A DNA stretch of 58,788 bases from a virus. Lineage: Duplodnaviria; Caudoviricetes. Of this stretch, positions 5,150-25,351 are shown in pieces. How positions within the stretch are numbered: the first letter of the stretch is position 1; each line of letters starts with the position of its first letter. The DNA lies in the IMG/VR virus record IMGVR_UViG_3300020420_000017, positions 1-58,788 of that record. One strand, given 5' to 3'. Under the pieces are notes generated by a model, which was given only the letters and a program-made list of their open reading frames with translations, had not been told where the DNA came from and did no database searches. The translations under genes were made by a program, and so were the position numbers.

Positions 5150-5376
5150 CTATTTCTTTTCTTTCTTTCTTGTCTAAACTTCCATAACATCCAATCATAA
5201 TATCTTTCAGGCTCTGGATCATCAGATTTAACTAATTTGCGTTCGCTCTTGCCAAAATCTCTTTCGTAAACTGTCTTACCACCATCAGGTGATTCATAAA
5301 TTTTTTTAGGTTTTTCTTCAGGCAATTCTACATGATCACCAGTTCCTGTCATATCTTGTGTATACTTATTCATCAT
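5146..5376 (-). CDS. Hypothetical protein
   Basis: IYESPDGGKTVYER motif common in marine phages. Confidence 0.65.
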   Translation of the reverse strand: MMNKYTQDMTGTGDHVELPEEKPKKIYESPDGGKTVYERDFGKSERKLVKSDDPEPERYYDWMLWKFRQERKKRNS

Positions 5377-6070
5377 AAAACTCCTCTACCATTGGAAATA
5401 TTTTTGATATAGCTTTACCGCAAGCTTTTGCAACTTGCATACATTCTTTTTGAGTACCATTTGCTGAGCGTAATTCTATAAAGTGAATCCAACTTCTTAT
5501 CGTACCATTCATATATAATCTAGACCTAGTTAATCCTTCAGGTAACACTACTCTAGCTTGTTCTTTAGCTACGTCATTTTCTATTGCCCACTTATACGCC
5601 TCTTTACAAACTTTAATTACTTCTTCTTGTTTACGTTTCCAACCCATATCTAAAGCTAATTCTGTATTTTTAATACTGTTTTGCCTGTTTTTCTTATCTT
5701 GAAGTCTTGCTTCTCTTACAACAAATTCTAACTCTTCTACTGGATTAGCGTACCTTTGACTAAATTCTTGAAAACTAAAACTTCTATGTCTTAGCAATTG
5801 TCTTGCAATGTCTCTTGTAGTTTCTATTTCAATACAAGCACTAACCATTTCGAATGGTGACCAATGTTTATATTTAATTAAATATCTTAATAACTTTTCA
5901 GTTGTTGCAGAATTATTCTGATTAGAAGGATTAGAAACTCTAGCGCAAAATGCAATTAAATCTTGAGAGCCTAAAACTAAATTTTTAGGATTTTCATCAT
6001 CTTTTTCATTATCACTAGACCATAGTCTAAATTCAGAAGGTTTACTATAACTAATTAATTCTGCTTTCAT
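5366..6070 (-). CDS. thyX: FAD-dependent thymidylate synthase
   Basis: RHRSFSFQEFSQRY ThyX motif, HWSPFE, EQARVVLP. Confidence 0.95.
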   Translation of the reverse strand: MKAELISYSKPSEFRLWSSDNEKDDENPKNLVLGSQDLIAFCARVSNPSNQNNSATTEKLLRYLIKYKHWSPFEMVSACIEIETTRDIARQLLRHRSFSFQEFSQRYANPVEELEFVVREARLQDKKNRQNSIKNTELALDMGWKRKQEEVIKVCKEAYKWAIENDVAKEQARVVLPEGLTRSRLYMNGTIRSWIHFIELRSANGTQKECMQVAKACGKAISKIFPMVEEFYDE

Positions 6071-6472: not shown

Positions 6473-7839
6473 TATAATTTAAAGTCCTTAAATCTTTTTC
6501 CTGTTTCTGTCTTATCAAATACTGGAGTATCGTCTGATAGAGTTTGCTGATTTTCTTCTACATCATACAAACGCATCTTACTTCGATCGACACCAACTAC
6601 AAATCTTTTATGTAGTGTTGGATCGTTGTAACGGTTCTTTAATTGTTTTACCATGAACTGCCCTTGCTGTTCAAGTTCTTCAGTTGTTATGAGAGCAAAC
6701 ATTAAGTCCGCGGTAGCGGGTAATCCAAAAGATTCACTTGTATCTTCAAGCCCAACATCCGAGTTAGAATAACCGCTACGAGTCGTTTGCGTTGCAGAGA
6801 AGATCGGTAAGTCAAATTCGACCGCAAGACCACGTAATTCTTCAGCAATTGCTTTAATGTAAGAGTATGAATTGATTGCACCGCCCATTCCTTTCATTCT
6901 AGAACTTGCACATATATTTAAATAATCAATAAAAATTAAGTCTGGTTCAAATTGTCTTTTTAGTTTAAGTTCATTCAATAAAGCTCTAAAATGACCAGCG
7001 TGCGCAGAGCCGGTTGGATATTCTTTTATTATTAATTTACCTTGTGTCTTACGCGCAATGTCTTGTACTTTTAAACTAAAAGTGTTCTTTGGTAATTTAT
7101 CTAATTGATCAATAGGAACATCAAGTAAATTTGCATCTATTCTTTCAGCTATTCTTTCTTCTGCCATTTCCATTGTAATATATAAAACGTTTTGACCTTG
7201 AACTAAAGCCGAGGCAGCAACATGACACATAAATAAAGACTTACCGACACCGGTACCAGCGAGAGCAATATTAAGAGTTTTACGTGGGACACCACCTTTG
7301 GTGATTGTGTTAAAGTATTCCAAATCAAATGGAAGCCTGTCTTCTTCTGTATGGTAGAATTCATATCGTTCCTCCGCGTTTTCTACGTAGTCATGGCCAA
7401 CTTGTAGATCAAAGCCGACACCTAGAGCTTTAGTCAACAAGTCTGGTAAGGCACCTTTAGTTAATTGTTCGTGTTTACCATCAATAATTGATATTGATTC
7501 CATAATTGCAAGATATATTGCACGATCTTGACACCACTTTTCAGTAGTATCAACTAGCCATTTATCGTCTACAGTATCACCAGTGAATAGCTGCGGTACT
7601 ATATCCATAGCCATATTATATTGCTCATCACTTAGTTTATCACTTTGATCAAGTTCAATTTTAAATGATTCAGCATTTGGCAACTTGTTATACTTAGCAA
7701 CAAATTTACCAGCTTCTCGAAACAATATTCTATAGATACCTTCAAAATAATCTGGTTTGATAAAAGGTAGTACTTTACGCATATACTTTTCATCAGTTAA
7801 CAGATTACGTAATATAGTTTGTTCTAAATTAGTAGGCAT
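6472..7839 (-). CDS. 41: Replicative DNA helicase gp41
   Basis: Walker A AGTGVGKS, ITMEMAEE, FIDYLN, SESFGLPATAD, QLKNRY. Confidence 0.95.
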   Translation of the reverse strand: MPTNLEQTILRNLLTDEKYMRKVLPFIKPDYFEGIYRILFREAGKFVAKYNKLPNAESFKIELDQSDKLSDEQYNMAMDIVPQLFTGDTVDDKWLVDTTEKWCQDRAIYLAIMESISIIDGKHEQLTKGALPDLLTKALGVGFDLQVGHDYVENAEERYEFYHTEEDRLPFDLEYFNTITKGGVPRKTLNIALAGTGVGKSLFMCHVAASALVQGQNVLYITMEMAEERIAERIDANLLDVPIDQLDKLPKNTFSLKVQDIARKTQGKLIIKEYPTGSAHAGHFRALLNELKLKRQFEPDLIFIDYLNICASSRMKGMGGAINSYSYIKAIAEELRGLAVEFDLPIFSATQTTRSGYSNSDVGLEDTSESFGLPATADLMFALITTEELEQQGQFMVKQLKNRYNDPTLHKRFVVGVDRSKMRLYDVEENQQTLSDDTPVFDKTETGKRFKDFKL

Positions 7840-8011
7840 ATGCAGCTTTTCTCAATTCCTCATCAATTTGTTTTTGTACTTCTTCAACTCGGCTTTCAAG
7901 ATAGCTTATTGAGGTGTGTATATGTCCAGTATCATGGGGTTCTAATTTACCTTTGGCGATAGATATTTCATCCATTAATAAAATTAATCTTTGACTAGTT
8001 GTTATCTGCAT
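7829..8011 (-). CDS. Hypothetical protein
   Basis: 60 aa ORF overlapping both neighbours. Confidence 0.55.
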   Translation of the reverse strand: MQITTSQRLILLMDEISIAKGKLEPHDTGHIHTSISYLESRVEEVQKQIDEELRKAAYAY

Positions 8012-8303
8012 CTATTATCTCTCTCGTTATTATTGATTTATCTTTTATACCATTTGATATTATTTTTTCTAATAAAGCACCAGCAAAATCTTGTAAATTG
8101 AAGTCATCTCTTGTTAGTTCAGTATCTGGTGTATAAACAATATTAAAATTAAAAGACATGTTTTTTGGAATTTCATTAAATTTAATAACACCGTATTTTA
8201 AAACAGTTTCAGTAAACGGACCTTTTAAGATTCTTACATTCCAAGCGTTTTCATCATTATGATCTGGTATTATTTCAAAATGTTTGTTTTCTTCTAGAAC
8301 CAT
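7995..8303 (-). CDS. Hypothetical protein at the gp40 position
   Basis: Lies between uvsX and 41, as gp40 does in T4. Confidence 0.55.
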   Translation of the reverse strand: MVLEENKHFEIIPDHNDENAWNVRILKGPFTETVLKYGVIKFNEIPKNMSFNFNIVYTPDTELTRDDFNLQDFAGALLEKIISNGIKDKSIITREIIDADNN

Positions 8304-9346
8304 TAATGTGCATCCATTTTATTTAAATTAATATTAGCGTTAACTATTGAGTATTTGCTAGTAATATAATCTTTAAAATCAGTATCTTCAATTATTGGTT
8401 TCCAAAACTTTTCATTTAACGTATCTTTTTCTCTAACTTTTGGATCCACCAATTCTCCAGTTGATTTATCGACTCGGCAATACCAACCAACGCTTGGCTT
8501 ACTGACATAGTTACCTGATAAAGCAACCTCAAGCAAACCAGACCAATGTTGAACACCACCGTCCCAACTAACAGAAATAGGAATCTTAGACTTTTCTTTA
8601 ACATATCTTGATTTCTCCACATTAATTACAAAGTGATAGCCTTTTATTTCTGTACCTTGTTTGTCCTGTTGTCTACCTACAATCCAAATATTATCTGCAC
8701 TGTAATAAATACCGGTACCACCTGACACGACATCTTTTGGAAATAAGCCGATTTCTTTGTATGTGTGGTTAACAGCAATTAAAGGTATATCTTTCATATT
8801 TAAATATGGTGTAGTCATTCTAAATAAACCTTTAAGTGCTTTTGCTCTTGACATATCTGCCACTGACTTTTCATTAATGGCATCATCTAATTCTTTCTTT
8901 GATGCAAGGTTACCGACTGAATCAATAATTATAATCACTTTATCTTTTCTATCTAATCCTTCTAATTGAGCAATGATATCAAATTTAAGTTCTTCCACAT
9001 TTGTAATTGGTGTATGCAGAACTCTTGTTGTATCAATATCAAAGTTTTCAAAATAAGCTTGAGGCGAACCAAACTCTGAATCATAAAATAATAATACAGC
9101 ATCATCATATTTTTTTAAATAAGCACTTGCCATAATTAAAGCAAACGATGTTTTAAAATGTTTTGATGGACCTGCAAGTACTGTCAGCCCTGGTGCCAAG
9201 CCTCCGTCCATCGAACCTGATAATGCCACATTAATCATTGGCACTTCAGTTGCAACCATATCCTTTTCATTAAAGAATTTAGAATCAGCAAGTATAGAAG
9301 TAAAATCACTCTTACTGTTCTTTTTTAATTTATCCATTATTGACAT
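8303..9346 (-). CDS. uvsX: RecA-like recombinase UvsX
   Basis: GPSKHFKT, YDSEFG, IDSVGNLAS, SGGTGIYYSAD. Confidence 0.95.
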   Translation of the reverse strand: MSIMDKLKKNSKSDFTSILADSKFFNEKDMVATEVPMINVALSGSMDGGLAPGLTVLAGPSKHFKTSFALIMASAYLKKYDDAVLLFYDSEFGSPQAYFENFDIDTTRVLHTPITNVEELKFDIIAQLEGLDRKDKVIIIIDSVGNLASKKELDDAINEKSVADMSRAKALKGLFRMTTPYLNMKDIPLIAVNHTYKEIGLFPKDVVSGGTGIYYSADNIWIVGRQQDKQGTEIKGYHFVINVEKSRYVKEKSKIPISVSWDGGVQHWSGLLEVALSGNYVSKPSVGWYCRVDKSTGELVDPKVREKDTLNEKFWKPIIEDTDFKDYITSKYSIVNANINLNKMDAH

Positions 9347-9369
9347 TTATTTCTCCTACAAATAATAAT

Positions 9370-9398
9370 ATTATACCATAAACGCATCGAGTTGTACA
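9370..9398 (-). promoter_or_regulatory. Promoter for uvsX, embedded in the 3' end of the upstream gene
   Basis: TGTACA-N17-TATAAT. Confidence 0.75.
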
Positions 9399-10570
9399 CT
9401 GTTTTTTTCAAAATTTAATTTATGATTTGTATTGTCTTGGATTAAAAAATCTGTATCAAGCATTTGATTACTTAGTCTTCCATCAACAAATTTTTCTACG
9501 TGTACTGCCATATCCTCAGCAGTAGTTACAGGAACGTTTTGACATATATGATTCAAATTTTTTACGCCACCTTGTAAATTAAAATCTTTTGGCAATTTCA
9601 TTATTGAAAGGCATTCTCTTAAAGTTAAATATCTATCTTCGTCTGGATGTGTTAAATGTTTAGGCATGTGACCAACAAAAGCACCTATTGTCCCTTTTGG
9701 AAAATGACATATTTTTCTCATAATGTTTCCACCTTGAGAAAGTTTTTCATGCATATTTAAACATCTTTCAGCTAACTTCGAATAACCTTGAGAATACATC
9801 CATTTAGAAACATTTTTATAATTTTCACCGTTCCATTCAATATAATCCATAGCATTTTGTGAGCGTGTTATTTTAGTATCTTGAAACTCTTTATGAGTAA
9901 TGTTACCACACATTTCTTCTAATACGTATCTGTAATATGGATTCTTAGAAGGAATATCTTCATTGGTAAGAACATTCATTGGATCTTTAAATTCACGTTT
10001 AACAGAACGAATAGTATCTTCAATTTTTTCATTGTCTCTTTTTATAAATTCAAACTGTGGTATTTTGTCGCCTTTCCAGAAAAAATAAAAAGTTCTATTT
10101 CTTACCTGTCCAAGCCCATGTAAGATAGACTTCGTTTTATAAATTGAGAAAGTATATCCAAACTTTTGTGCAATTTTTCTGAGTTTTCTGACAATTGGTC
10201 TGCCGATGTTTGAAGCAAGTCCTGGTGCATTTTCGCCCCAGAATACTTGAGGTTTGAGTGTACCCAAAACAAAACTAGCAGTGGTAAGCATCCAATCGTT
10301 AGCAGCAGCATCGCTACTAGCTGTAGGACTAAGACTACTAAGACCGGCACATGGGCAAACAGTATTAATAATCTCAACACTAGGTAAGTCAGGTACCCCA
10401 TTGTCTCCATAAAGATAGTAGGGAACTCTTCCTTTATAGTATTCCACCAAATGATTATCGTTTGCTTTGAAATCATCATAACTTATTATATATTCCGGTT
10501 TTCGTTGCAACACATTTTGCATTGCAATCGTAGCTCCTCCAATCAATGGTACTATGCTTGCATACTTCAT
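9371..10570 (-). CDS. DNA (cytosine-5)-methyltransferase-fold protein with atypical motif I
   Basis: Motif IV CPCAGLS, VI ENAP, VIII QVRNRTF, IX RYLTLRECLSIM, X QNVP; motif I reads VPLIGG. Confidence 0.75.
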   Translation of the reverse strand: MKYASIVPLIGGATIAMQNVLQRKPEYIISYDDFKANDNHLVEYYKGRVPYYLYGDNGVPDLPSVEIINTVCPCAGLSSLSPTASSDAAANDWMLTTASFVLGTLKPQVFWGENAPGLASNIGRPIVRKLRKIAQKFGYTFSIYKTKSILHGLGQVRNRTFYFFWKGDKIPQFEFIKRDNEKIEDTIRSVKREFKDPMNVLTNEDIPSKNPYYRYVLEEMCGNITHKEFQDTKITRSQNAMDYIEWNGENYKNVSKWMYSQGYSKLAERCLNMHEKLSQGGNIMRKICHFPKGTIGAFVGHMPKHLTHPDEDRYLTLRECLSIMKLPKDFNLQGGVKNLNHICQNVPVTTAEDMAVHVEKFVDGRLSNQMLDTDFLIQDNTNHKLNFEKNSVQLDAFMV

Positions 10571-11328
10571 TAGTGAGGTATCGTATGTTGTACAATGTAT
10601 TCATCAACTTTAACCTTTGGTTCCCAGCCTAAAGCTTTTAGTTCAGTTATGTCTGCAGTATTATCCTGCGCTTCACAAGGATCGCCGTCTGTAACTTCTA
10701 GTCCTTCCCATCCTGCAAGCTTACCAAGTTCTTCTACTACGTTACCATTACCTGTACCTATATCATATGCAGGTTTTAGTGTTCTAATATCTTTACTGAT
10801 TAATAATACTATTGCTTCTACCACATCACTTACATGTATGAAGTCCCTTACGTGTCTTGTGAGATACGCGATTGAGCCATCTAGTAATTTTCCAATTAAC
10901 ATTGATTCTCTTGCACCGTCACCATATACTGTAGTAAATCTCAATCCAACCTGATGATCGTATGCAGTTTCTTCATTTACTTTTTTACTCGTACCATAAG
11001 GTGATAGCCACCAATTATGAATACAGGATGAAGACGCATACAACAATGGTATATTATTATAGTGACAAATTTTTTGTATACGTGTAGTATTTTCTACATT
11101 ATTTTTCCAATATTTTTCTGGCTCTTTTAAACTTTGTCTTACATCAGCAAATGCAGCAAGATGAATAACGTAATTTGTTTCATAAATTTGTCGTATATCA
11201 AAGTCTTTTATGCACTTCGGTGGAGTTTGTTTTAAATCCCATTCGATTATTTCATGTCCATCTTCTTCTAATCTTTTTTTAAGATGACTGCCAATAAATC
11301 CTCTTGAACCGGTTAGTGCTATTTTCAT
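10570..11328 (-). CDS. NAD-dependent NDP-sugar epimerase/dehydratase
   Basis: TGSRGFIG, HLAA, YASSS, YGTSK, RFTTVYG, RDFIHVSD. Confidence 0.9.
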   Translation of the reverse strand: MKIALTGSRGFIGSHLKKRLEEDGHEIIEWDLKQTPPKCIKDFDIRQIYETNYVIHLAAFADVRQSLKEPEKYWKNNVENTTRIQKICHYNNIPLLYASSSCIHNWWLSPYGTSKKVNEETAYDHQVGLRFTTVYGDGARESMLIGKLLDGSIAYLTRHVRDFIHVSDVVEAIVLLISKDIRTLKPAYDIGTGNGNVVEELGKLAGWEGLEVTDGDPCEAQDNTADITELKALGWEPKVKVDEYIVQHTIPH

Positions 11329-12335
11329 TTGTTATTCTCCAAAAATTTTTCTGCTGTTGATAATGCTGAGTTGATTGCTTGATGCATGTCAATATAAACA
11401 TACATACCACAACGACCAATAAAAGTCATATTTGATTTGGTAAGTTTTTTATATTGCTCATACTTTTTTCTGTTTTCGCCGTTGACATCTTTTACTGGAT
11501 AGTATCTTTCAAAATTATTTACCATGTAATCACATGGCTCTTCATAAGTTAAAGTCGTAAACTTACTATTCATACCATGACATGGAAGGTTTTTCCATTC
11601 TGTTACTCTTGTATATGGACCATCATGTGTAAAGTTTACTGTGCCAGTTGGTAATACTCTTGTCATAGGTAAATCTACATGATGAAACTTTATTGAACGA
11701 TACGGTAAATTACCATAGACATATCCAAAGTAATCATCAATCGGCATTGAATTAAAAATATGATCAAATTCTTTTTCCATTCTTTTTTGAAAACGTTGAG
11801 AAAGATTTACACTAATATTTTTTTTATCTAAGATCAATTCGAATATTCTTGTATAACCATTTTTTGGTAATACTTGATATAAATCATTTGGAAAGTAAAA
11901 TTCGTTATCATCGTCACGACTTGGTATTCTTTTAATTATTGATGGATCAAGTTCTTCTATAGTCTTTCCCCACATTTTGTATGTATATGGTGCAAAGAAA
12001 GTATTTATGATATTTTCTTCACCTACTATTCTTTTCGTTTCTTTATTTACTGGTAACGTAACATACGTACCATCATAAAGTTGTGCTTTTACTTTATGTC
12101 TATATGGTACCCATTCATCAAACTGCGTTATCCAATCATATACTTTCTTATTATTAGTATGAAACAAATGAGGACCATACTTGTGAATTCTTATTCCTTT
12201 ATCATTTGTATAGTCATAAGCGTTACCACCTATGTGATCTCTCTCATCTATTACTGTAATATCATGACCAGCTTTTGCCAGCTGATGCGCAATTACTGCG
12301 CCAGAAAAACCTGCACCTACTACTAATATTTTCAT
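11325..12335 (-). CDS. glf: UDP-galactopyranose mutase
   Basis: GAGFSG, HIGGNAYD, HKYGPHLFHTN, RYYP, GRCGMYVYIDMHQAI. Confidence 0.92.
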   Translation of the reverse strand: MKILVVGAGFSGAVIAHQLAKAGHDITVIDERDHIGGNAYDYTNDKGIRIHKYGPHLFHTNNKKVYDWITQFDEWVPYRHKVKAQLYDGTYVTLPVNKETKRIVGEENIINTFFAPYTYKMWGKTIEELDPSIIKRIPSRDDDNEFYFPNDLYQVLPKNGYTRIFELILDKKNISVNLSQRFQKRMEKEFDHIFNSMPIDDYFGYVYGNLPYRSIKFHHVDLPMTRVLPTGTVNFTHDGPYTRVTEWKNLPCHGMNSKFTTLTYEEPCDYMVNNFERYYPVKDVNGENRKKYEQYKKLTKSNMTFIGRCGMYVYIDMHQAINSALSTAEKFLENNK

Positions 12336-13441
12336 ATATTCAAAGCCTTCTTCAATTCATTTTTTTGTATATTTTTATTTAACGGATGTTTAATATATAT
12401 CGACTTTTTTTGGAGTGCAGCTAGATCTTGTAGTTGTTGTACACTCATATCTTTAAGGTGCGATGCTTTTACTGATGCCGCTTCTTCATTACCGTATAAT
12501 ACCATTAGTTCTTCATAATCACCAATCAAGATTGAACCGGCATCAGCAACTTGTAATGGTCTTGCTCTCCACCAACCTGAACCTGAATGTTCATATCCTG
12601 GCATTAAACAACCCCATTGTTCTGCATAAACTTTACACATATCGCTTTCACCAAGTCTTCTTTGATTATCTTTACGAGAACCAAAGTATTCTATATCCCA
12701 TGGTACATCTTGCTTTTTTAGCCAGCTTAATGTTTTACCATGTGCTAGTGATGCAAAGTTAAATTTCTTTTCTTTATTCTCTGGACTTATAAAGTCTTCT
12801 TCATAAGTCGGTTGTAGTTGTGCTTCCATAAAATTTAAATCATGTAACTCCACATCACCTCTATCACCAGGTATTCTGTTTCTATGATAAGGATTTGGAT
12901 TATAATTAAATAATTTATCTTCTGGATATTCTAATAACTTATTCATATCACCTGTTGCAAATACAGATAATAATACAGGCGCTTCTTTCTTATCTAAAAA
13001 ATCTACAGCTTCTAATAACTGATCAACGTATGGTTCTAAAAACTCTTTACTTATTTGAGGATCTGTTACGTTTTGACCGATTAAAAAATCTTTCAATAAA
13101 CCTTCTTTATTATTTGTTTTTTGAATATCTTTAAATATCCATGGACATTTCCAATCATCAAATGCTAATATAAGTTTACTCTTATCGATATTAAATATTG
13201 ACCATAAGCCATTATAAAAAGTTAATTGCAACCTTTGTGTAGGTGATGCAAGAAAACAAATCACTCTATCATATTCTGATAAGTCTTCACCAACTTTTAC
13301 TATTCTTTGTTCAACTTCATGACCCATATCTCTTAAACATCTTAGTAAAGAATAATGTGATGGCACAACTTTTAACTGTTGTTTTAAGTAAAAGTTTTCA
13401 GTAACTTGGTTCTTATTCATTCCTGTGACGAGTATTTTCAT
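12332..13441 (-). CDS. GT-B glycosyltransferase, DNA beta-glucosyltransferase-like
   Basis: N-terminal KVVPS..LLRCLRDMGHEV, LAFDDW and C-terminal WRARPLQVADAGSILIGD resemble the T4 BGT layout (from memory); sits between gp42-like and sugar genes. Confidence 0.6.
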   Translation of the reverse strand: MKILVTGMNKNQVTENFYLKQQLKVVPSHYSLLRCLRDMGHEVEQRIVKVGEDLSEYDRVICFLASPTQRLQLTFYNGLWSIFNIDKSKLILAFDDWKCPWIFKDIQKTNNKEGLLKDFLIGQNVTDPQISKEFLEPYVDQLLEAVDFLDKKEAPVLLSVFATGDMNKLLEYPEDKLFNYNPNPYHRNRIPGDRGDVELHDLNFMEAQLQPTYEEDFISPENKEKKFNFASLAHGKTLSWLKKQDVPWDIEYFGSRKDNQRRLGESDMCKVYAEQWGCLMPGYEHSGSGWWRARPLQVADAGSILIGDYEELMVLYGNEEAASVKASHLKDMSVQQLQDLAALQKKSIYIKHPLNKNIQKNELKKALNI

Positions 13442-13445
13442 AATA

Positions 13446-13805
13446 TTATCCTTGTAAGTAGTTATAGCATTTACGTATCATAGTTTTTTCAAATTGTTTA
13501 TCATTTAGTTGTCTATTTCTTGGAGATGGATGTGGCATTTTAAAATGTTCTACATTGACTTTACGTAATGAATCAGATGCAACGTTGCCAAGTGCAATAA
13601 CTTTATTTGCCTCTTCGCACTTAACTAATTTATCAAAATCAACTTTATACTTTTCACCAACATCATCGCTACAATTCATAAATTCAAAATTTGTTAAACC
13701 CCATGCTGTACACCAATTTAATAATCTATCTATCGTATCATTCTTCTTTGGCTTTTCTGCACCAGAAGGATTCTGACCAATTATTACAACTTTATCCATT
13801 CCCAT
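13446..13805 (-). CDS. Small uracil-DNA glycosylase-superfamily protein
   Basis: VVIIGQNPS (motif A), IALGNVA, MPHPSPRN (motif B). Confidence 0.75.
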   Translation of the reverse strand: MGMDKVVIIGQNPSGAEKPKKNDTIDRLLNWCTAWGLTNFEFMNCSDDVGEKYKVDFDKLVKCEEANKVIALGNVASDSLRKVNVEHFKMPHPSPRNRQLNDKQFEKTMIRKCYNYLQG

Positions 13806-14251
13806 TTTACACCTGCTTCATCAAAATAATTTTGTGCATCTGCACACGATACTGCCCATTTATCATCAAGATGTCTACGTTCTGGCATAACTACTCTTTT
13901 TACACCAACCTGAATGAGTCCTTTTGCGCATTCGCCGCAAGCTGGTAAACCTACAACATAAACAGTAGAATCTTTTAAACATACACCATTGTCTGCAGCA
14001 TTATAAATTAAATTCATTTCTGCATGTACAATCATTTTATACTTTAACTGTTTATGTTCGTACCTATATGAGTCATCACTAATACCTCTAGGAAAACCAT
14101 TATAACCTTGAGCTATTACAGTACGATTTCTAACTGCAATGGCACCAACTTGTGTTGAAGGATCTTTCGACCACGACGCTACAAGTTTAGCCATTTCTAA
14201 AAATCTTATATCCCATTTATTTGACAAGATCAAAGTGCCTTTCATAAACAT
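13784..14251 (-). CDS. cd: dCMP deaminase
   Basis: SKDPSTQVGA, GYNGFPRG, HAE, PACGECAK; probable TTG start near 14227. Confidence 0.92.
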   Translation of the reverse strand: MFMKGTLILSNKWDIRFLEMAKLVASWSKDPSTQVGAIAVRNRTVIAQGYNGFPRGISDDSYRYEHKQLKYKMIVHAEMNLIYNAADNGVCLKDSTVYVVGLPACGECAKGLIQVGVKRVVMPERRHLDDKWAVSCADAQNYFDEAGVKWEWIKL

Positions 14252-14927
14252 GCAAGTTTTGTACTTGCCATATTATGTCACCAACTTCCATTTCTTTTCT
14301 ATAATCTGCATCTGCAGCATTTGATAAGTAACAGTCATTATAATCTTTCGTTAGTTCTGTTAGAACATGAAGCTGCCAAGCATAGTCATTTTTATATCCG
14401 AACACGACATCGTTTGAACGCATTTGGACCACGCAGTGTATTTTACCATCGCGTATGTAATAAGTAACGGCGTTAGTACATATGAAATCATTCTTACCAT
14501 CTTCATTATATTCCTCCCATATGCTCGGTCTTGTGTAAATCATTGTAGATCTACGGCCATCGATGTTTGCTAGTAATTCATCAAGCACTCTACCGTATTG
14601 GTGATGGTACTTATCAGAATAAATTATCTGACCATAGTTTGAATTAATTTCACCATAAGTATTTGCGGCACCCAACCATGCTTTTGGAACGTTTCTATTA
14701 TAAGTATCTGACATCCAGTTTACGTTTGTTGATTGACTTTCGTACCAAGCTTTTTCTATTTCAATATATTCATCACTTGGTGTACCAAATATAGCTGGTT
14801 TGTCTGCCATAAAAGATGCACCAATCATTTCAATAGTTTTTTGTCCGGTTCTATCGGTTACAAATTCTTCATTGGCTAACGCATCAATGAAATAATGTTT
14901 TATATCAGTTGTATTTGGATGTATCAT
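14217..14927 (-). CDS. 42: dCMP hydroxymethylase (gp42-type)
   Basis: INSNYG, DFICTNAV (catalytic Cys), MRSNDVVFGYKNDYAW with Asp at the cytosine-specificity position, NLHVYERHF. Confidence 0.88.
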   Translation of the reverse strand: MIHPNTTDIKHYFIDALANEEFVTDRTGQKTIEMIGASFMADKPAIFGTPSDEYIEIEKAWYESQSTNVNWMSDTYNRNVPKAWLGAANTYGEINSNYGQIIYSDKYHHQYGRVLDELLANIDGRRSTMIYTRPSIWEEYNEDGKNDFICTNAVTYYIRDGKIHCVVQMRSNDVVFGYKNDYAWQLHVLTELTKDYNDCYLSNAADADYRKEMEVGDIIWQVQNLHVYERHFDLVK

Positions 14928-15307
14928 ATTTTTATCTTTCTTAAAGGATGTTCTATTTTTTTATTAAACATATCTCTATCGGAGGATTGACCTTCCATCT
15001 TGCCACGCATGTAAGATACTGCAAACGAACAATAGTTAATTATATCTTTGTATGTATCTTCAAGTGATTCGAAGTTTGGATTACCACTACTTTCTAACAG
15101 TGATTGCGCACGATAACATTTACCTTGAATTATATCGTGTATACTATCGACACCTCTACGATAGTGCATTGCTTGTTTTACGTTTGAATCTTTACTTTGA
15201 TAATCTTCTGACTTTTTAAGTTGTAAAGTAATGCATTCATTTAAAACTTCTACTGATTCTTTTTTAACCAATGATTTCAATTTCATCTCCATACTGCCAA
15301 TGTCCAT
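14924..15307 (-). CDS. Nucleotide-modification-associated all-alpha protein (DUF1599/Nmad1-like)
   Basis: LQLKKSEDY ... ESLEDTYKDIINY pattern; adjacent to gp42; true start probably ~15271. Confidence 0.65.
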   Translation of the reverse strand: MDIGSMEMKLKSLVKKESVEVLNECITLQLKKSEDYQSKDSNVKQAMHYRRGVDSIHDIIQGKCYRAQSLLESSGNPNFESLEDTYKDIINYCSFAVSYMRGKMEGQSSDRDMFNKKIEHPLRKIKI

Positions 15308-15524
15308 TATTTAGATCTATTATACACTGATCTATCATACTTGTAAACATTTTTTTTACATTTATTCCACACTTAGAGAAATGTCTTTTTTCTGGCATTA
15401 GCTCAATTTTTTTAATTCTAGCTGGACCATATTTAGTATCAACTAAGTCACCAATATAAAACATATTATCATGCTTAACTTCACCATCTGTGTCAAAAGC
15501 TGTATTTAATTCTAAATTATCCAT
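15264..15524 (-). CDS. Hypothetical protein
   Basis: 86 aa ORF, GGAGG RBS. Confidence 0.6.
   Translation of the reverse strand: MDNLELNTAFDTDGEVKHDNMFYIGDLVDTKYGPARIKKIELMPEKRHFSKCGINVKKMFTSMIDQCIIDLNNGHWQYGDEIEIIG
15319..15347 (-). promoter_or_regulatory. Internal promoter driving the DNA-modification operon
   Basis: TTTACA-N17-TATAAT inside the 15264-15524 ORF, just upstream of the Nmad1-like gene. Confidence 0.7.
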
Positions 15525-16701: not shown

Positions 16702-17661
16702 TTAAATACTTTTGTAAACGTATTCTAGAGCTCTATCAGCTTCTTTTTCCATTGGTCTAGATTTATACCAATTACCAGTCTCTGCATCAAGCTCTCTACA
16801 TAGAAAAGTAATTTCTTGAGCTGTAATAGGATATTTATTTTTTATTGCGTTTCCTGCAGTGGCAACCATGATTTGATACATCTTATGATACCAACCAGAA
16901 TTACTTATCATTCTATATTCTTTTTCTAATTGTCTAGGAAAGAACGGACAATTTTTATATGATGACCAATTTATATTACTGTTATCAAGCTTTGATTTTC
17001 TGTGCTCGATGATTTCCTTCTTCATATCTTCTGGCAATCTATCGAAAAAACTATTACTATTTTTTTCTCGATAAGGGTACTTATTCATAACCATATCTGG
17101 ATTGATAGAACTGCCATTGTTACTAAAGATAAAGTTAAAAGCATTATCATATTTTGCTGGTATATAATACATGCGAGATAAATCTTTGGTTTGTTTATCA
17201 CCGAGGTCGCCGAGTTCCGTTTGGAGAGCAAACCAAAAGTGTCGAATCTTTTTAGCCGGAACTGTTTTTGTAAGAGGGAAGACAAGGCGAAACTTTGGAA
17301 GAGATTGTGTAGAGCTAGCAGTAGAGTAACAAACGAACTTATAATTATTAAACCGTGTACGTAAATTTCCATATAGATCTCCTTCATATTTAAAATCATC
17401 TACATCAACCGCACACCAACTTGACCACATCGTAACATTGTCATTCTTACGAGTAGTCTCTGGCTTGTAACAAGCAGGTGACATTAATGGTGCGTCTTTC
17501 TTTGATTTTATTCTACGTTCAGCTAAACCATATAACGCTTTTTCAAAACTATTAAAGTCTTTAAATGTAAGCTTTTGGCCAGTTTTGTTATCAAAAATAC
17601 TATTGAAAAGAGTCAGTGATATTTCCATGATTACCTTCGTGATTTGGACCTTTCCAACCAT
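16702..17661 (-). CDS. AEP-like primase / prim-pol family protein
   Basis: RKNDNV...AVDVDD, YSTASS..PKFRLVFPL, KDLSRMYYIP; probable start MEISLTLF. Confidence 0.65.
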   Translation of the reverse strand: MVGKVQITKVIMEISLTLFNSIFDNKTGQKLTFKDFNSFEKALYGLAERRIKSKKDAPLMSPACYKPETTRKNDNVTMWSSWCAVDVDDFKYEGDLYGNLRTRFNNYKFVCYSTASSTQSLPKFRLVFPLTKTVPAKKIRHFWFALQTELGDLGDKQTKDLSRMYYIPAKYDNAFNFIFSNNGSSINPDMVMNKYPYREKNSNSFFDRLPEDMKKEIIEHRKSKLDNSNINWSSYKNCPFFPRQLEKEYRMISNSGWYHKMYQIMVATAGNAIKNKYPITAQEITFLCRELDAETGNWYKSRPMEKEADRALEYVYKSI

Positions 17662-23983: not shown

Positions 23984-24213
23984 TGTATTCTATTTTCTAC
24001 CATGGCTTGTAACTCTGCAATGGTTGGCACAACAACTGCATCCCACCATTTTATCCAAGCGTTGTAATCATTATCAAAATATGATTCTTTTATAAAGGTT
24101 TGTATTTGATCACATTCAAACGCCATTGAGGGTTGTATTAAGCTGTGTGCTGATAATAACTCGCACATTGCGAGCTGATTAACAAACTGATTTATCATTT
24201 CCATTTCAACCAT
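23980..24213 (-). CDS. Hypothetical protein
   Basis: 77 aa coupled ORF. Confidence 0.55.
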   Translation of the reverse strand: MVEMEMINQFVNQLAMCELLSAHSLIQPSMAFECDQIQTFIKESYFDNDYNAWIKWWDAVVVPTIAELQAMVENRIQ

Positions 24214-25351
24214 TTAATATTATTATAATCCTTTTTGCTAGATTTGTAAACCATTTTTTATCATGGCCTTTAGTTGTTTCTGCTGCAGTACCTATTCTTA
24301 TGCCACTTGTTTCTACAAAGTTACGTGGATCGTTAGGCACACCATTTTTATTAACTGTTATTCCGTTTTCTTCCAATCTATCTGCAGCTTCTCTACCACT
24401 AATTTTATTCTTACTTAGATCAATTAATATGATATGACTATCAGTTCCACCGGTTAACACAGGTAATCCATTTTCTTCAAATGTTTTTGCCATGGCTTTT
24501 GCGTTAGCAATAACATTCTTTATATAATCTTTAAAACTTTTTTCTTGCGCTTCAATGTAACATTGTGCTTTTGCTGCAATAATATTCATCAAAGGCCCGC
24601 CTTGAGTTCCTGGAAATATTGCACTGTTAATTTTTTTAGTTAAATCACCATCATTCCAAAGTATCATACCACCACGTGGACCGCGCAATGTCTTATGTGT
24701 TGTGCTTGTTACTACATCTGCGTAAGGTAAAGGGCTTGGATATTCTTCAGCAGCAACCAAACCACTATAATGCGCCATGTCACATACTAACTTAGCACCA
24801 ACCATGTTAGATATGTATTTAAAACTTTGCCAATTAATTTTTCTTGAATACGCACTTGCGCCTGCTACAATGACTTTAGGTTTATGTATTGCTGCAATCT
24901 TTTCAACCTGTTCATAATCTATTAATCCATCTTCTTTTACACCATAAGTTATAGACTTGTAAACTTTACCACTTAACGTAGGTGGTGCTCCATGACTTAG
25001 ATGACCGCCACTTGCTAAATCCATTCCTAATATTGTATCACCCGGATTCATAAGTGCTTGATAAACTGCAGTATTTGCGTTTACACCACTGTGAGGCTGT
25101 ACATTTGCATGTAAGCATTTATATAAGTTTGTTACTTCATTAATTGCTAAGTCTTCTATCTCGTCCATATACTTGCAACCATTATAGTATCTTTTATTTG
25201 GATAACCTTCAGCATACTTGTTTGTAAATACGCTACCACATAAATCCATAACGGCCTGACTCGCAAAGTTTTCACTTGCAATTAATTCGATCGTATTGTC
25301 TTGTCTTTTAATTTCTTTATCTAGAATCTTTTTAACTTTTGAATATACCAT
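24206..25351 (-). CDS. glyA: Serine hydroxymethyltransferase
   Basis: LIASEN, NKYAEGYP, GGHLSHG, DMAH, TTHKTLRGPRGG (PLP Lys), FPGTQGGP. Confidence 0.95.
   Translation of the reverse strand: MVYSKVKKILDKEIKRQDNTIELIASENFASQAVMDLCGSVFTNKYAEGYPNKRYYNGCKYMDEIEDLAINEVTNLYKCLHANVQPHSGVNANTAVYQALMNPGDTILGMDLASGGHLSHGAPPTLSGKVYKSITYGVKEDGLIDYEQVEKIAAIHKPKVIVAGASAYSRKINWQSFKYISNMVGAKLVCDMAHYSGLVAAEEYPSPLPYADVVTSTTHKTLRGPRGGMILWNDGDLTKKINSAIFPGTQGGPLMNIIAAKAQCYIEAQEKSFKDYIKNVIANAKAMAKTFEENGLPVLTGGTDSHIILIDLSKNKISGREAADRLEENGITVNKNGVPNDPRNFVETSGIRIGTAAETTKGHDKKWFTNLAKRIIIILNG

What the first reader, a model, noticed from the sequence alone, without database searches (positions are those of the whole stretch)
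9371..15347. Candidate new DNA hypermodification operon: 5hmC plus a furanose sugar (galactofuranosyl/arabinofuranosyl-hmC)
Seen: a tightly packed operon behind its own promoter (15319-15347) encodes Nmad1-like, gp42-type hydroxymethylase, dCMP deaminase, mini-UDG, GT-B glycosyltransferase, UDP-galactopyranose mutase, NDP-sugar epimerase and a C5-MTase-fold protein, inserted between gp43/primase and uvsX. Established: this is the neighbourhood where T4 keeps 42 and bgt. In RSNDVVFGYKND the twelfth residue is Asp, where thymidylate synthase has Asn, which specifies dCMP. Glf converts UDP-Galp to UDP-Galf and also accepts UDP-L-arabinose. Inference: epimerase -> mutase -> GT makes a UDP-furanose and transfers it to 5hmC in DNA, a different sugar from T4 glucosyl-hmC and a likely anti-restriction/anti-CRISPR coat. 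I know of no characterised Glf-dependent DNA modification, but could not search for one.
Basis: partly seen in the sequence, partly recalled or inferred. Interest (0 to 1): 0.9.

Follow-up and report, generated by a model that had tools for sequence, protein, structure and literature searches.

The report
Predicted galactofuranosyl-hydroxymethylcytosine DNA modification operon
An uncultured marine T4-like phage carries a compact gene cluster that most likely replaces cytosine in its DNA with 5-hydroxymethylcytosine and then attaches a five-membered-ring sugar, probably galactofuranose, a variant of T4's DNA camouflage that has not yet been shown chemically.

Summary
Eight tightly packed minus-strand genes (9371-15307) encode DUF1599/Nmad1, a thymidylate-synthase homolog, dCMP deaminase, a 119-aa UDG-like protein, a GT-B glycosyltransferase, UDP-galactopyranose mutase (Glf), a short SDR epimerase and a C5-methyltransferase. 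They lie between DNA polymerase gp43 and uvsX. T4 keeps 42 and beta-gt in that slot, and RB69 keeps its arabinosylation genes there.

The synthase is the T4 gp42 type: 52% identity, with Asp at the positions of E. coli ThyA L143, D169 and N177. It is not the 5-hydroxycytosine type, which has D169N. The glycosyltransferase model's best Foldseek match is T4 beta-glucosyltransferase.

Among 80 IMG/VR loci holding a relative of the glycosyltransferase, 78 hold Glf (74 directly adjacent). Of 57 loci with enough upstream sequence, 52 hold a gp42-type synthase, and none has D169N. The same glycosyltransferase-Glf pair occurs in cultured Aeromonas and Erwinia T4-like phages that have gp42, and beside a TET/JBP dioxygenase in phage C48C1.

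Best reading (about 0.55): galactofuranosyl-5hmC DNA. No chemistry exists. Prior art is partial: a 2026 NAR paper proposes phage Glf-made UDP-galactofuranose for galactosylated 5-hydroxycytosine in Rhizobium phage RL38J1. This scan reached the same reading earlier on other genomes. The methyltransferase and UDG-like gene are accessory. I class it as a new variant of a known kind.

The parts
14924..15307 (-). DUF1599/Nmad1 helical protein (127 aa as listed; relatives suggest a later start). It overlaps the synthase gene by 4 nt. Its role is unknown; a nucleotide-handling helper is possible.
   Evidence: Pfam PF07659, 28.9 bits. phrog_1485. Present in 42 of 57 testable loci. Invariant KKSxDYQ, NFESLED and GQ..RD motifs. 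Helical model with pLDDT 85 and no significant PDB match.
14217..14927 (-). gp42-type dCMP hydroxymethylase (5hm-dCMP synthase), 236 aa.
   Evidence: PF00303, 48 bits. 52% identity to T4 gp42 against 29% to RB69 gp48. The motif MRSNDVVFGYKND has Asp at the ThyA 169 and 177 positions, and DFICT has Asp at the 143 position plus the catalytic Cys.
13784..14251 (-). dCMP deaminase (a T4 cd analogue; supplies dUMP to ThyX), 155 aa.
   Evidence: PF00383, 72.9 bits. phrog_174, 1.6e-43. Present in 44 of 57 testable loci.
13446..13805 (-). 119-aa UDG-superfamily mini-protein. Accessory, role unknown.
   Evidence: DUF1643 29.3 bits and UDG 27.4 bits. Atlas look-alikes are virus-only clusters of about 120 aa, of which 20-27% carry PF03167. 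Present in 16 of 66 loci. No match in the phage records.
12332..13441 (-). GT-B glycosyltransferase, the predicted DNA 5hmC furanosyltransferase, 369 aa.
   Evidence: No Pfam or NCBIfam family. phrog_14998. Model pLDDT 86.9. Foldseek top hit is T4 BGT 1qkj, E 2.4e-7. VIA Z 15.8 with 298 aligned residues for BGT, tied with other GT-B enzymes. 669 metagenomic relatives.
11325..12335 (-). UDP-galactopyranose mutase (Glf), 336 aa, about 30 aa shorter than solved UGMs. It overlaps the glycosyltransferase gene by 4 nt.
   Evidence: PF03275, 170.5 bits. PDB UGM 3hdq, E 3.1e-75. TIGR00031 scores 282.9 bits, just under its 303.75 cut-off. Adjacent to the glycosyltransferase in 74 of 80 loci.
10570..11328 (-). 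Short extended-SDR NDP-sugar epimerase (252 aa), a probable UDP-hexose 4-epimerase.
   Evidence: PF01370, 91.8 bits. Best PDB match is UDP-glucose 4-epimerase 4zrm, E 1.7e-14, with GxxGxxG and SPYGxxK aligned. The GalE equivalog scores 77 bits against a cut-off of 262. An SDR is present in 52 of 57 loci.
9371..10570 (-). C5-cytosine methyltransferase-fold protein (399 aa). Accessory, with no assigned step in the pathway.
   Evidence: PF00145, 58.2 bits. PLxGG, PCAGLS, ENAP, QxRxR and QNVP are invariant in 30 sequences. Present in 29 of 59 loci. The only phage-record relatives are the cyanophage S-TIM5 group and Pseudoalteromonas phage XG4.
17600..18025 (-). MazG-like nucleotide pyrophosphohydrolase, a candidate dCTPase/dUTPase analogue of T4 gp56 (inferred).
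   Evidence: phrog_671, 1.7e-24. Weak PDB match to the MazG-like DR2231, E 1e-3. Found near the cluster in many related loci.
5366..6070 (-). ThyX thymidylate synthase. It covers dTMP synthesis, so the ThyA-fold gene is free for cytosine modification.
   Evidence: PF02511, 152.4 bits.
24206..25351 (-). Serine hydroxymethyltransferase, a likely supplier of methylene-tetrahydrofolate for the hydroxymethylase and ThyX (inferred).
   Evidence: PF00464, 482 bits.
15319..15347 (-). Sigma-70-like consensus match (TTTACA-17-TATAAT) inside the upstream ORF. Function not shown.
   Evidence: 11 of 12 positions match, but the number of such sites in the region is not above shuffles.

Best explanation
This is a T4-style cytosine replacement and glycosylation pathway with a different sugar.

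Step 1, before replication. The gp42-type enzyme converts dCMP to 5-hydroxymethyl-dCMP using methylene-tetrahydrofolate. The phage's own SHMT may supply that cofactor. A MazG-like pyrophosphatase may deplete dCTP, and dCMP deaminase plus ThyX keep dTMP synthesis going. Kinases not seen on this fragment would make hm-dCTP, and the phage polymerase would incorporate it.

Step 2, sugar supply. The short SDR epimerase makes UDP-galactopyranose from UDP-glucose, and Glf contracts the ring to UDP-galactofuranose.

Step 3, after replication. The BGT-like GT-B enzyme is translationally coupled to Glf and pulls that unfavourable equilibrium by transferring galactofuranose to the hydroxymethyl group of 5hmC in DNA. 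The product would be galactofuranosyl-5hmC, a coat against restriction and CRISPR nucleases.

What is shown here: gene identities, the active-site signature of the synthase, the GT-B fold, synteny and co-occurrence. What is inferred: the acceptor (5hmC in DNA), the donor (UDP-Galf), the epimerase's specificity, the dCTPase role, and complete replacement of cytosine.
For: - Synthase. It is 52% identical to T4 gp42 and 29% identical to the 5hoC synthase RB69 gp48. It has Asp at the ThyA L143, D169 and N177 positions plus the catalytic Cys. The D169N rule for 5hoC synthases comes from PMC13326640, sections 24 and 28. All 62 synthases found in related loci carry the same signature, and 0 have N169.
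- Synteny. The cluster fills the gp43...uvsX slot that holds 42 and beta-gt in T4 and the arabinosylation cluster in RB69.
- Glycosyltransferase. The model is confident (pLDDT 86.9, pTM 0.86). Its top Foldseek PDB hits are T4 BGT (E 2.4e-7 to 4.9e-6), and T4 AGT is also listed. For BGT, VIA Z is 15.8 with 298 of 351 residues aligned. The family profile gives a weak N-terminal match to BGT (58 columns, 36% identity, probability 31%).
- Linkage. Of the 80 best IMG/VR loci (out of 181 confirmed), 78 have Glf and 74 have it directly downstream of the glycosyltransferase. Glf is present in 58 of 59 loci with at least 4.5 kb downstream. A gp42-type synthase is present in 52 of 57 loci with at least 3.5 kb upstream. 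An SDR epimerase is present in 52 of 57.
- Independent lineages. The same glycosyltransferase-Glf pair lies at another genome position (beside motA) in Aeromonas phage 25 and its relatives and in Erwinia phage FBB1. Both also have a gp42-type synthase. tblastn with T4 beta-gt found nothing in either. Petrov et al. 2010 (PMC2993671, passages read) list phage 25 as having genes 42 and 56 but no glucosyltransferase.
- C48C1. The pair directly follows a TET/JBP dioxygenase (PF12851, 62.6 bits), which is another route to a hydroxymethyl-pyrimidine in DNA.
- Distant relative. Morganella phage Rgz1 gp40 (24% identity, 88% coverage, E 3e-10) lies inside an arabinosyl-5hoC type cluster.
- Glf. E 3.1e-75 to a solved UGM, with the aligned Tyr, Trp and Arg substrate-site residues conserved.
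- A separate ThyX and an SHMT are present.
Against: - There are no chemical data for this phage or any relative.
- Glf scores 282.9 bits, below the NCBIfam equivalog cut-off of 303.75, and lacks about 30 residues of the helical domain.
- The epimerase is only 252 aa and lies far below the GalE cut-off (77 against 262 bits), so its substrate is unknown.
- By VIA-align the glycosyltransferase is tied with glycogen synthase and SenB (Z 15.9-16.2), so the fold does not single out DNA as the acceptor. The profile match to BGT is weak, and there is no match to RB69 arabinosyltransferase 1.
- As far as I recall, known galactofuranosyltransferases are not GT-B enzymes. I did not test this.
- 5 of 57 testable loci have the glycosyltransferase but no synthase within 10 kb. 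C48C1 has neither a ThyA-fold gene nor a C5-methyltransferase, so the acceptor is not always gp42-made 5hmC.
- No dNMP kinase or proven dCTPase is on this fragment, which is 33% complete.
- An apparently active C5-methyltransferase fits poorly with complete replacement of cytosine.
- The 80 loci include many near-duplicates and are not independent samples.
Confidence: 0.55

Rival explanations
1. 5hmC is made and glycosylated, but with a pyranose hexose (glucose or galactopyranose) taken straight from the UDP-sugar pool. In this case Glf serves another acceptor or a second, unidentified transferase.
For: The closest solved fold, T4 BGT, uses UDP-glucose. Phage methyltransferase/TET clusters pair a glycosyltransferase with an epimerase alone and install hexoses (Pyle et al., bioRxiv 10.1101/2023.12.21.572611; abstract and passages read). 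Glf is below its equivalog cut-off.
Against: The glycosyltransferase and Glf genes overlap by 4 nt here. They are adjacent in 74 of 80 loci and in three further phage lineages at other genome positions. That pattern is hard to explain unless the two enzymes work together. No second glycosyltransferase was seen in the cluster.
Confidence: 0.15
2. The furanose is L-arabinofuranose, or another sugar that a promiscuous mutase can contract. It would be made from UDP-xylose or UDP-arabinopyranose by the SDR and Glf, giving arabinofuranosyl-5hmC.
For: Arabinofuranose is a proven DNA sugar in RB69 and DLP3 (PMC13326640, section 23 passages). The glycosyltransferase has a distant relative inside an arabinosylation-type cluster. 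The specificity of the SDR is open.
Against: The known phage route to UDP-arabinofuranose goes through arabinose-5-phosphate isomerase, a kinase/uridylyltransferase and a phosphatase (PMC13326640, section 27). None of these is among the eight genes. No UDP-xylose synthase was seen. The mutase is closest to bona fide UDP-Galp mutases.
Confidence: 0.07
3. The sugar genes do not act on DNA. Epimerase, Glf and the glycosyltransferase are auxiliary genes that decorate a host surface glycan or a virion protein with galactofuranose.
For: A phage Glf has been annotated as a host cell-wall function (Agrobacterium phage Atu_ph04, PMC6630229, passage read). Partial tblastn matches exist to Gordonia phage glycosyltransferases of unknown role. 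The GT-B fold alone does not define the acceptor.
Against: The genes sit inside the replication and nucleotide-metabolism module, in the slot used for DNA glycosylation in T4 and RB69. They are linked to a gp42-type synthase in 52 of 57 loci and to TET/JBP in C48C1. The top Foldseek hits are the two T4 DNA glucosyltransferases.
Confidence: 0.08
4. The cluster is mixed. Only part of the cytosine is replaced, and the C5-methyltransferase methylates the remaining cytosines at its target motif, so the DNA carries both 5mC and glycosyl-5hmC.
For: The catalytic motifs of the methyltransferase are invariant in 30 sequences, so it is under selection. It is co-transcribed in 29 of 59 loci. No proven dCTPase is present.
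Against: Half of the related loci lack the methyltransferase yet keep the rest of the cluster. Its phage-record relatives stand alone in cyanophages with no modification cluster nearby. A MazG-like candidate dCTPase is conserved nearby.
Confidence: 0.1

Closest known systems
T4 glucosyl-5hmC pathway (gp56 dCTPase, gp42 dCMP hydroxymethylase, gp1 kinase, Cd deaminase, alpha- and beta-glucosyltransferase)
   Same: A gp42-type synthase with the same active-site signature and 52% identity. A dCMP deaminase. A GT-B glycosyltransferase whose best Foldseek match is T4 BGT. The same genome slot between gp43 and uvsX.
   Different: The phage carries its own sugar-nucleotide tailoring genes (SDR epimerase plus UDP-galactopyranose mutase), which predict a furanose rather than glucopyranose. 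Its glycosyltransferase is not a sequence-level member of the BGT family. It has a MazG-like protein and Nmad1 where T4 has a recognisable gp56, ThyX where T4 has Td, and an extra C5-methyltransferase and mini-UDG.
Arabinosyl-5-hydroxycytosine pathway of RB69, DLP3 and HY126 (Lee et al., NAR 2026, PMC13326640)
   Same: It occupies the same slot in RB69. It also builds a furanose sugar on C5-modified cytosine, using phage-made UDP-sugar and GT-B transferases acting on DNA. The window's glycosyltransferase has a distant homolog inside such a cluster in Morganella phage Rgz1.
   Different: The base differs: those phages use a D169N flavin-dependent 5ho-dCMP synthase, whereas this one retains D169 like gp42. 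The sugar route differs: they start from ribulose-5-phosphate via arabinose-5-phosphate isomerase, whereas this cluster uses an epimerase and a mutase. There is no detectable similarity to RB69 arabinosyltransferase 1.
Rhizobium phage RL38J1 and other Pootjesviridae glycosylated 5-hydroxycytosine (PMC13326640, section 28 and Table 1)
   Same: A phage-encoded UDP-galactopyranose mutase is proposed to make UDP-galactofuranose for a DNA cytosine modification whose base-proximal sugar is galactose. The window's Glf has tblastn matches in Rhizobium and Agrobacterium phages at about 36% identity.
   Different: There the base is 5hoC (a D169N synthase), three glycosyltransferases build a galactose-glucose chain, and the mutase is not adjacent to the first glycosyltransferase. 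Here the base is 5hmC and there is one glycosyltransferase fused in an operon with Glf. The pathway figure for RL38J1 is in a supplement that I could not open.
Phage methyltransferase + 5mYOX/TET + glycosyltransferase (+ epimerase) clusters (Burke et al. 2021, seen in a search listing only; Pyle et al. 2023 bioRxiv, abstract and passages read)
   Same: 5hmC in DNA is the acceptor for diverse sugars. The glycosyltransferase depends on a partner epimerase. A C5-methyltransferase is part of the cluster. In C48C1 a homolog of the window's glycosyltransferase, with Glf, follows a TET/JBP gene.
   Different: In those clusters 5hmC is made after replication at methylated sites. Here it is made before replication by a gp42-type enzyme, and no TET was found on this fragment. 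The words 'mutase', 'furanos' and 'Glf' do not occur in the Pyle main text.

Membership tests
T4 gp42-type 5hm-dCMP synthase (ThyA superfamily) | ThyA fold with the catalytic cysteine (E. coli ThyA C146). | tested here: met
   PF00303, 48 bits against a cut-off of 24.3. The Cys in DFICT aligns with the T4 gp42 Cys.
T4 gp42-type 5hm-dCMP synthase (ThyA superfamily) | N177D (dCMP specificity), an acidic residue at L143, and D169 retained. | tested here: met
   MRSNDVVFGYKND and DFICT align column for column with T4 gp42 MRSNDVVFGFRND. The signature D/C/R/S/D/D is found in the window and in all 62 related loci that have the gene. The rule is taken from PMC13326640, sections 24 and 28.
T4 gp42-type 5hm-dCMP synthase (ThyA superfamily) | Produces 5hm-dCMP from dCMP and methylene-tetrahydrofolate. 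| not testable with these tools
   This needs expression and LC-MS.
5-hydroxy-dCMP synthase (RB69 gp48 / DLP3 gp80 type) | Asn at the ThyA D169 position (D169N). | tested here: not met
   The window has Asp. RB69 gp48 and Morganella Rgz1 gp33 have MRSQN. Identity to RB69 gp48 is only 29%.
UDP-galactopyranose mutase (Glf/UGM) | GLF domain plus an N-terminal FAD-binding Rossmann motif. | tested here: met
   PF03275, 170.5 bits (cut-off 26.3), and PF13450, 76 bits. E 3.1e-75 to the solved UGM 3hdq.
UDP-galactopyranose mutase (Glf/UGM) | Score above the NCBIfam equivalog cut-off (TIGR00031). | tested here: not met
   282.9 bits against a cut-off of 303.75. About 30 residues of the helical domain are missing relative to solved UGMs.
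UDP-galactopyranose mutase (Glf/UGM) | Substrate-site Arg, Tyr and Trp residues (K. pneumoniae UGM numbering Y155, W160, R174, Y185, R280; this residue list is recalled, not taken from a call). | tested here: met
   In the printed alignment to 1wam, the query has Y, W, R, Y and R at the aligned positions.
T4 beta-glucosyltransferase-like DNA glycosyltransferase | GT-B fold of two Rossmann-like domains. | tested here: met
   Model pLDDT 86.9. Foldseek top hit 1qkj, E 2.4e-7. VIA Z 15.8, rmsd 4.3, 298 residues aligned.
T4 beta-glucosyltransferase-like DNA glycosyltransferase | Sequence-level membership of the BGT family. | tested here: inconclusive
   hhalign of the family profile against T4 BGT gives only 58 N-terminal columns at 36% identity, probability 31%. 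No Pfam or NCBIfam family matches.
T4 beta-glucosyltransferase-like DNA glycosyltransferase | Transfers sugar to 5hmC in duplex DNA. | not testable with these tools
   Only context supports this: the syntenic slot and linkage to a gp42-type synthase in 52 of 57 loci.
UDP-glucose 4-epimerase (GalE) | Extended SDR with GxxGxxG and the Ser...YxxxK catalytic residues. | tested here: met
   GSRGFIGSH, and SSS...SPYGTSK aligned to 4zrm. PF01370, 91.8 bits.
UDP-glucose 4-epimerase (GalE) | Score above the GalE equivalog cut-off (TIGR01179), and full length of about 310-340 aa. | tested here: not met
   77.2 bits against a cut-off of 262.3. The protein has 252 aa, with several deletions relative to 4zrm.
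DNA cytosine-C5 methyltransferase | PF00145 domain with motif IV Pro-Cys, motif VI ENV and motif VIII QxRxR. | tested here: met
   58.2 bits against a cut-off of 22. PCAGLS, ENAP, QxRxR and QNVP are invariant in 30 sequences. Motif I is atypical (PLxGG). TIGR00675 scores 32.7 bits, below its cut-off of 100.65.
Phage methyltransferase-5mYOX(TET)-glycosyltransferase cluster | A TET/JBP dioxygenase next to the methyltransferase and glycosyltransferase. | tested here: not met
   PF12851 gave no match at E <= 1 in the 58.8-kb record. No tblastn match to the C48C1 TET was found in any of the 80 loci. The record is only about 33% of a genome.

The most novel reading that the evidence does not exclude
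Galactofuranosyl-5-hydroxymethylcytosine would be a real and widespread DNA base in abundant marine T4-like phages related to pelagiphage HTVC008M and Methylophilales phage Melnitz, and in Aeromonas and Erwinia phages.

It would be installed by a previously unrecognised family of BGT-like GT-B enzymes that use UDP-galactofuranose. That would make them the first DNA galactofuranosyltransferases and a new structural class of galactofuranosyltransferase.

The glycosyltransferase-Glf pair would be a mobile two-gene cassette that plugs into whichever hydroxylated pyrimidine a phage makes: gp42-made 5hmC here, and the TET/JBP product in C48C1. Its distant relatives would serve 5hoC clusters.
Probability: 0.45. 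Interest if true: 0.75.

Novelty: new variant of a known kind. Interest (0 to 1): 0.62.

Why it matters
Sugar coats on phage cytosines decide which restriction enzymes, type IV nucleases, DNA glycosylases and CRISPR effectors can attack a phage, and they are a source of enzymes for epigenetic sequencing.

Four points would follow if the reading is right.
- A furanose hexose on 5hmC would add a new chemical class to the T4 paradigm.
- It would give a DNA-directed transferase that uses UDP-galactofuranose.
- It would explain an old gap, namely that Aeromonas phage 25 has genes 42 and 56 but no glucosyltransferase (Petrov et al. 2010).
- It would mean that a sizeable group of uncultured marine myoviruses carry hypermodified DNA. 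That affects how well they are recovered and read in metagenomes: the stretch, or parts of it, is held by 20 listed runs from 11 studies, one of which may be the source.

The idea can be tested at once in cultured Aeromonas and Erwinia phages.

Tried and rejected
- Nmad1 as a MazG-like dCTPase: not supported. hhalign of the Nmad1 family profile against the MazG family profile gave probability 0.3%. The Nmad1 model (pLDDT 85) had no Foldseek PDB match at E <= 0.001; the best had E 0.94, and all-alpha NTP pyrophosphatases such as 2p06, 2oig, 7mu5 and 1vmg appeared only at E >= 1. In the wide VIA search the best Z was 7.9, and 2p06 at Z 7.8 was tied with unrelated helical proteins. phmmer against PDB sequences found nothing below E 0.1. 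The role stays unknown.

- Homology of the glycosyltransferase to RB69 arabinosyltransferase 1: the two split ORFs, tested separately, gave hhalign probabilities of 0.3% and 0.06%.

- Mini-UDG: phmmer against PDB gave one non-significant row, and tblastn against phage records found no match. The Atlas gave only look-alike viral clusters.

- TET/JBP on this record: none found.

- Homologs of the window's methyltransferase, or any PF00145 gene, in C48C1, Aeromonas phage 25 and FBB1: none found. These empty answers had no positive control for the protein query.

- T4 beta-gt homolog in those three records: nothing found. The tool notes that an empty answer without a positive control shows little.

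- Sequencing runs. Contigs from two RNA libraries of one study cover parts of the cluster at 90-99% identity, including a 1607-nt contig across Glf, the glycosyltransferase and the mini-UDG. They are contigs of relatives, and RNA libraries can hold DNA, so I do not count this as evidence of transcription. Uncovered bins mean nothing.

- Literature. Ten full-text searches found no report of a galactofuranosyl or Glf-dependent 5hmC modification. The only paper linking Glf to phage DNA modification was PMC13326640. Iyer et al. 2013, the source of the Nmad names, is not held.

- I considered looking for base-calling errors at C in native nanopore reads as a direct sign of modification. I dropped the idea because the run index works on exact 31-mers of assembled contigs, and such reads would not yield them.

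Full report
WHAT THE WINDOW IS. The window is a 58.8-kb linear IMG/VR virus record that CheckV estimates at 33% complete. Its GC content is about 32% and almost all genes lie on the minus strand. It encodes T4-type replication and head genes: gp43, gp41, uvsX, gp44, gp45, gp46/47 and the major head protein. The nearest cultured relatives by major capsid protein are phage C48C1 (68%), Methylophilales phage Melnitz (64%) and Pelagibacter phage HTVC008M (62%). The stretch, or parts of it, is held by 20 listed marine or seawater runs from 11 studies. One of these may be the source of the record.

OBSERVATION. Seven are confirmed by Pfam: DUF1599/Nmad1, Thymidylat_synt, dCMP deaminase, DUF1643 plus UDG on a 119-aa protein, GLF, NAD-dependent epimerase and C5 DNA_methylase. 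PHROGs agrees. The 369-aa protein has no Pfam or NCBIfam family, but it folds confidently as a GT-B glycosyltransferase (pLDDT 86.9, pTM 0.86). The promoter-like site at 15347-15319 is a true 11-of-12 consensus match. However, it lies inside the upstream 86-aa ORF, and the region has no more such sites than shuffled sequence does (39 against 41.8 +/- 6.0). An independent promoter is therefore not shown.

SYNTENY. T4 has the order 43 - imm.1 - imm - 42 - beta-gt - segA - uvsX - 40 - 41. RB69 has 43 - arabinose pathway genes - gp48 - gp47/46 - kinase - uvsX. The window has 43 - MazG - primase-like - small ORFs - the eight genes - uvsX - a 102-aa ORF - 41. The cluster therefore fills the same variable slot that holds the DNA-glycosylation genes of T4 and RB69.

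WHICH BASE. A 2026 paper (Lee et al., NAR, PMC13326640; I read the abstract and sections 24, 25, 27, 28 and 29) shows that the gp42 homologs of RB69 and DLP3 make 5-hydroxy-dCMP, not 5-hydroxymethyl-dCMP. It also shows that Asn at the E. coli ThyA D169 position marks such enzymes, while N177D gives dCMP specificity and an acidic residue at L143 goes with a product other than methyl. I aligned the window protein with T4 gp42, RB69 gp48 and the gp42 homologs of Aeromonas phage 25 and Erwinia phage FBB1. Identities to the window protein are 52%, 29%, 44% and 47%. The window has MRSNDVVFGYKND, T4 has MRSNDVVFGFRND and RB69 has MRSQNCAVVMQLD. So D169 is retained, position 177 is Asp, position 143 is Asp and the catalytic Cys is present. 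The enzyme is the T4 hydroxymethylase type. A separate ThyX (5366-6070) covers dTMP synthesis, and a phage SHMT (24206-25351) could supply methylene-tetrahydrofolate.

THE GLYCOSYLTRANSFERASE. Its family is large: 669 proteins at E <= 0.001 among 2747 candidates, none with a Pfam domain or an informative name. I built the model from an alignment of the window protein and 28 of the 120 listed relatives. In the PDB its best Foldseek hits are T4 beta-glucosyltransferase entries (1qkj E 2.4e-7, 1nzd, 1j39, 1c3j, 1bgt), and T4 alpha-glucosyltransferase is also in the list. VIA-align gives BGT Z 15.8 (rmsd 4.3, 298 of 351 residues, 14% identity). That is tied with glycogen synthase (Z 16.2) and SenB (Z 15.9), and a phage HY126 glycosyltransferase scores Z 13.5. 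The fold is thus clearly GT-B and BGT-like but does not by itself name the acceptor. A profile comparison with T4 BGT finds only a weak N-terminal match (58 columns, 36% identity, probability 31%). There is no detectable similarity to the two halves of RB69 arabinosyltransferase 1. Among viral models the nearest are uncharacterised proteins (TM 0.7-0.8).

THE SUGAR GENES. Glf matches solved UDP-galactopyranose mutases at E 3.1e-75. In the printed alignment to the 1wam sequence it keeps the Tyr, Trp and Arg residues that I recall as the substrate site. It is about 30 residues shorter in the helical domain and scores 282.9 bits against the 303.75-bit equivalog cut-off. The SDR protein is only 252 aa. 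It keeps GxxGxxG and the Ser/YxxxK residues and is closest to UDP-glucose 4-epimerases (4zrm, E 1.7e-14). Against the GalE equivalog it reaches only 77 bits where the cut-off is 262. Its specificity is therefore inferred, not shown.

That gave 229 pattern matches, of which 181 were confirmed relatives, and the best 80 loci were kept. I then ran tblastn with the window's proteins on those 80 loci.
- Glf is present in 78 of 80 loci and directly downstream on the same strand in 74. One exception (L052) ends 419 nt after the glycosyltransferase, and the other (L090) truly lacks Glf. Among loci with at least 4.5 kb downstream, 58 of 59 have it.
- A ThyA-fold gene is present in 62 of 80 loci, and in 52 of 57 with at least 3.5 kb upstream. 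All 62 carry the gp42 signature and none has N169.
- An SDR is present in 52 of 57 loci, dCMP deaminase in 44 of 57 and Nmad1 in 42 of 57.
- uvsX follows in 40 of 59 loci.
- The C5-methyltransferase is present in only 29 of 59 loci and the mini-UDG in 16 of 66.
- Many loci are near-duplicates of each other, so these counts describe a clade and are not independent events.
- Five loci (L049, L076, L080, L089, L090) have no synthase within 10 kb. In L076 and L049 the pair is followed by a cytidylyltransferase-like gene. In L076 it sits between ThyX plus another SDR and a ribonucleotide reductase gene.

INDEPENDENT LINEAGES. In the phage records the glycosyltransferase and Glf are adjacent in three further settings.
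- Aeromonas phage 25 and about 18 relatives, and Erwinia phage FBB1. In both groups the pair lies next to motA, far from gene 43. Each has one canonical ThyA and one gp42-type gene. A tblastn search with T4 beta-gt found nothing in them. Petrov et al. 2010 (PMC2993671, passages read) had noted that phage 25 has genes 42 and 56 but no glucosyltransferase, and asked whether other modifications exist. The phage 25 record marks both genes as not conserved in its relative 44RR.
- Phage C48C1, the window's closest cultured relative. It has no ThyA-fold gene and no C5-methyltransferase, and the pair directly follows a 472-aa TET/JBP dioxygenase (PF12851, 62.6 bits). This enzyme family hydroxylates 5-methylpyrimidines in DNA. 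Pyle et al. (bioRxiv 2023, passages read) suggest that, without a methyltransferase nearby, such enzymes probably make 5hmU.
The cassette is therefore tied to hydroxymethyl-pyrimidine synthesis by two unrelated routes. A more distant relative of the glycosyltransferase (Morganella phage Rgz1 gp40; 24% identity, 88% coverage) lies in an arabinosylation-type cluster whose synthase has N169.

ACCESSORY GENES. The catalytic motifs of the C5-methyltransferase are invariant across 30 sequences, so it is probably active. Its only phage-record relatives are stand-alone genes in the cyanophage S-TIM5 group and a Pseudoalteromonas phage, and half of the related clusters lack it. I see no step for it in the glycosylation route. 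It may methylate residual or host cytosines. The MazG-like protein next to gp43 is the best candidate for a dCTPase, but this is inference. The Nmad1 fold gave no significant match.

COMPARISON WITH WHAT IS KNOWN. The system works like the T4 glucosyl-5hmC pathway with a different, phage-made sugar donor. It is not the RB69/DLP3 arabinosyl-5hoC system, because the D169N test is not met and the sugar route differs. It is not a TET-type cluster, because no TET is on this fragment. The closest prior art for the sugar is Rhizobium phage RL38J1. There Lee et al. report a D169N synthase, three glycosyltransferases and a phage UDP-galactopyranose mutase, and they propose UDP-galactofuranose synthesis in a supplementary figure that I could not open. 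Ten literature searches found no report of galactofuranosyl-5hmC or of a Glf-linked 5hmC pathway. Earlier notes of this scan on other genomes (e1-5659861, e1-5659870) reached the same reading. They are not independent evidence, and I re-tested the claim here.

VERDICT. I put the full chain (5hmC made before replication, glycosylated on DNA by this enzyme, with Glf-derived galactofuranose) at about 0.55. The weakest links are the identity of the sugar and the epimerase's substrate. It is a new variant of a known kind, of good but not exceptional interest, and it can be tested directly in cultured Aeromonas and Erwinia phages.

Noticed in passing
window 24206-26522 (minus strand): A phage serine hydroxymethyltransferase (PF00464, 482 bits) is followed directly by a 396-aa FAD oxidoreductase. 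The oxidoreductase resembles D-amino-acid dehydrogenase and glycine oxidase (NF009074 at 327.8 bits, below its 494 cut-off). Both lie next to the clamp-loader gene. They could form a one-carbon supply module for hydroxymethylation.
   Followed up: partly
L001 (phage C48C1, OQ984149.1) 6586-10033: A TET/JBP dioxygenase (472 aa), a homolog of the window's glycosyltransferase, and Glf lie in a row in a phage with no ThyA-fold gene and no C5-methyltransferase. This suggests a furanosylated 5hmU (base-J-like) or another TET-derived base.
   Followed up: partly
window 13446-13805: A 119-aa UDG-superfamily protein with GQNPS and HPSPRN motifs, far smaller than known UDGs. Its look-alike clusters are virus-only. 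It is present in 16 of 66 related loci, and its function is unknown.
   Followed up: partly
L076 7171-14255 and L049 9338-12777: These are variants of the glycosyltransferase-Glf cassette with no gp42-type gene within 10 kb. A small cytidylyltransferase-like gene follows the pair. In L076 the pair is preceded by ThyX, an unknown 340-aa ORF and a 292-aa SDR. In L049 an IS605 OrfB/Cas12f-like TnpB gene lies nearby.
   Followed up: partly
window 13809-14083: In one DNA run a 7-kb contig matches the cluster on both sides but has 270 different letters in place of this stretch, which is the 5' part of the dCMP deaminase gene. The deaminase is also the least conserved cluster gene among close relatives (65-74% identity where its neighbours are 80-96%).
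   Followed up: no
window 16702-17661 and 21013-21618: A 319-aa primase-like protein (phrog_9765) lies between the MazG-like gene and the cluster. A 201-aa HAD-phosphatase-like protein (weak Pfam and PHROG hits) lies downstream of gp43. Their roles are unknown.
   Followed up: no
L094 (Morganella phage Rgz1) 4938-12703: This is an arabinosylation-type cluster with an N169 synthase (gp33). It contains a 355-aa glycosyltransferase (gp40) distantly related to the window's glycosyltransferase family, in addition to the gene at the position of arabinosyltransferase 1.
   Followed up: partly
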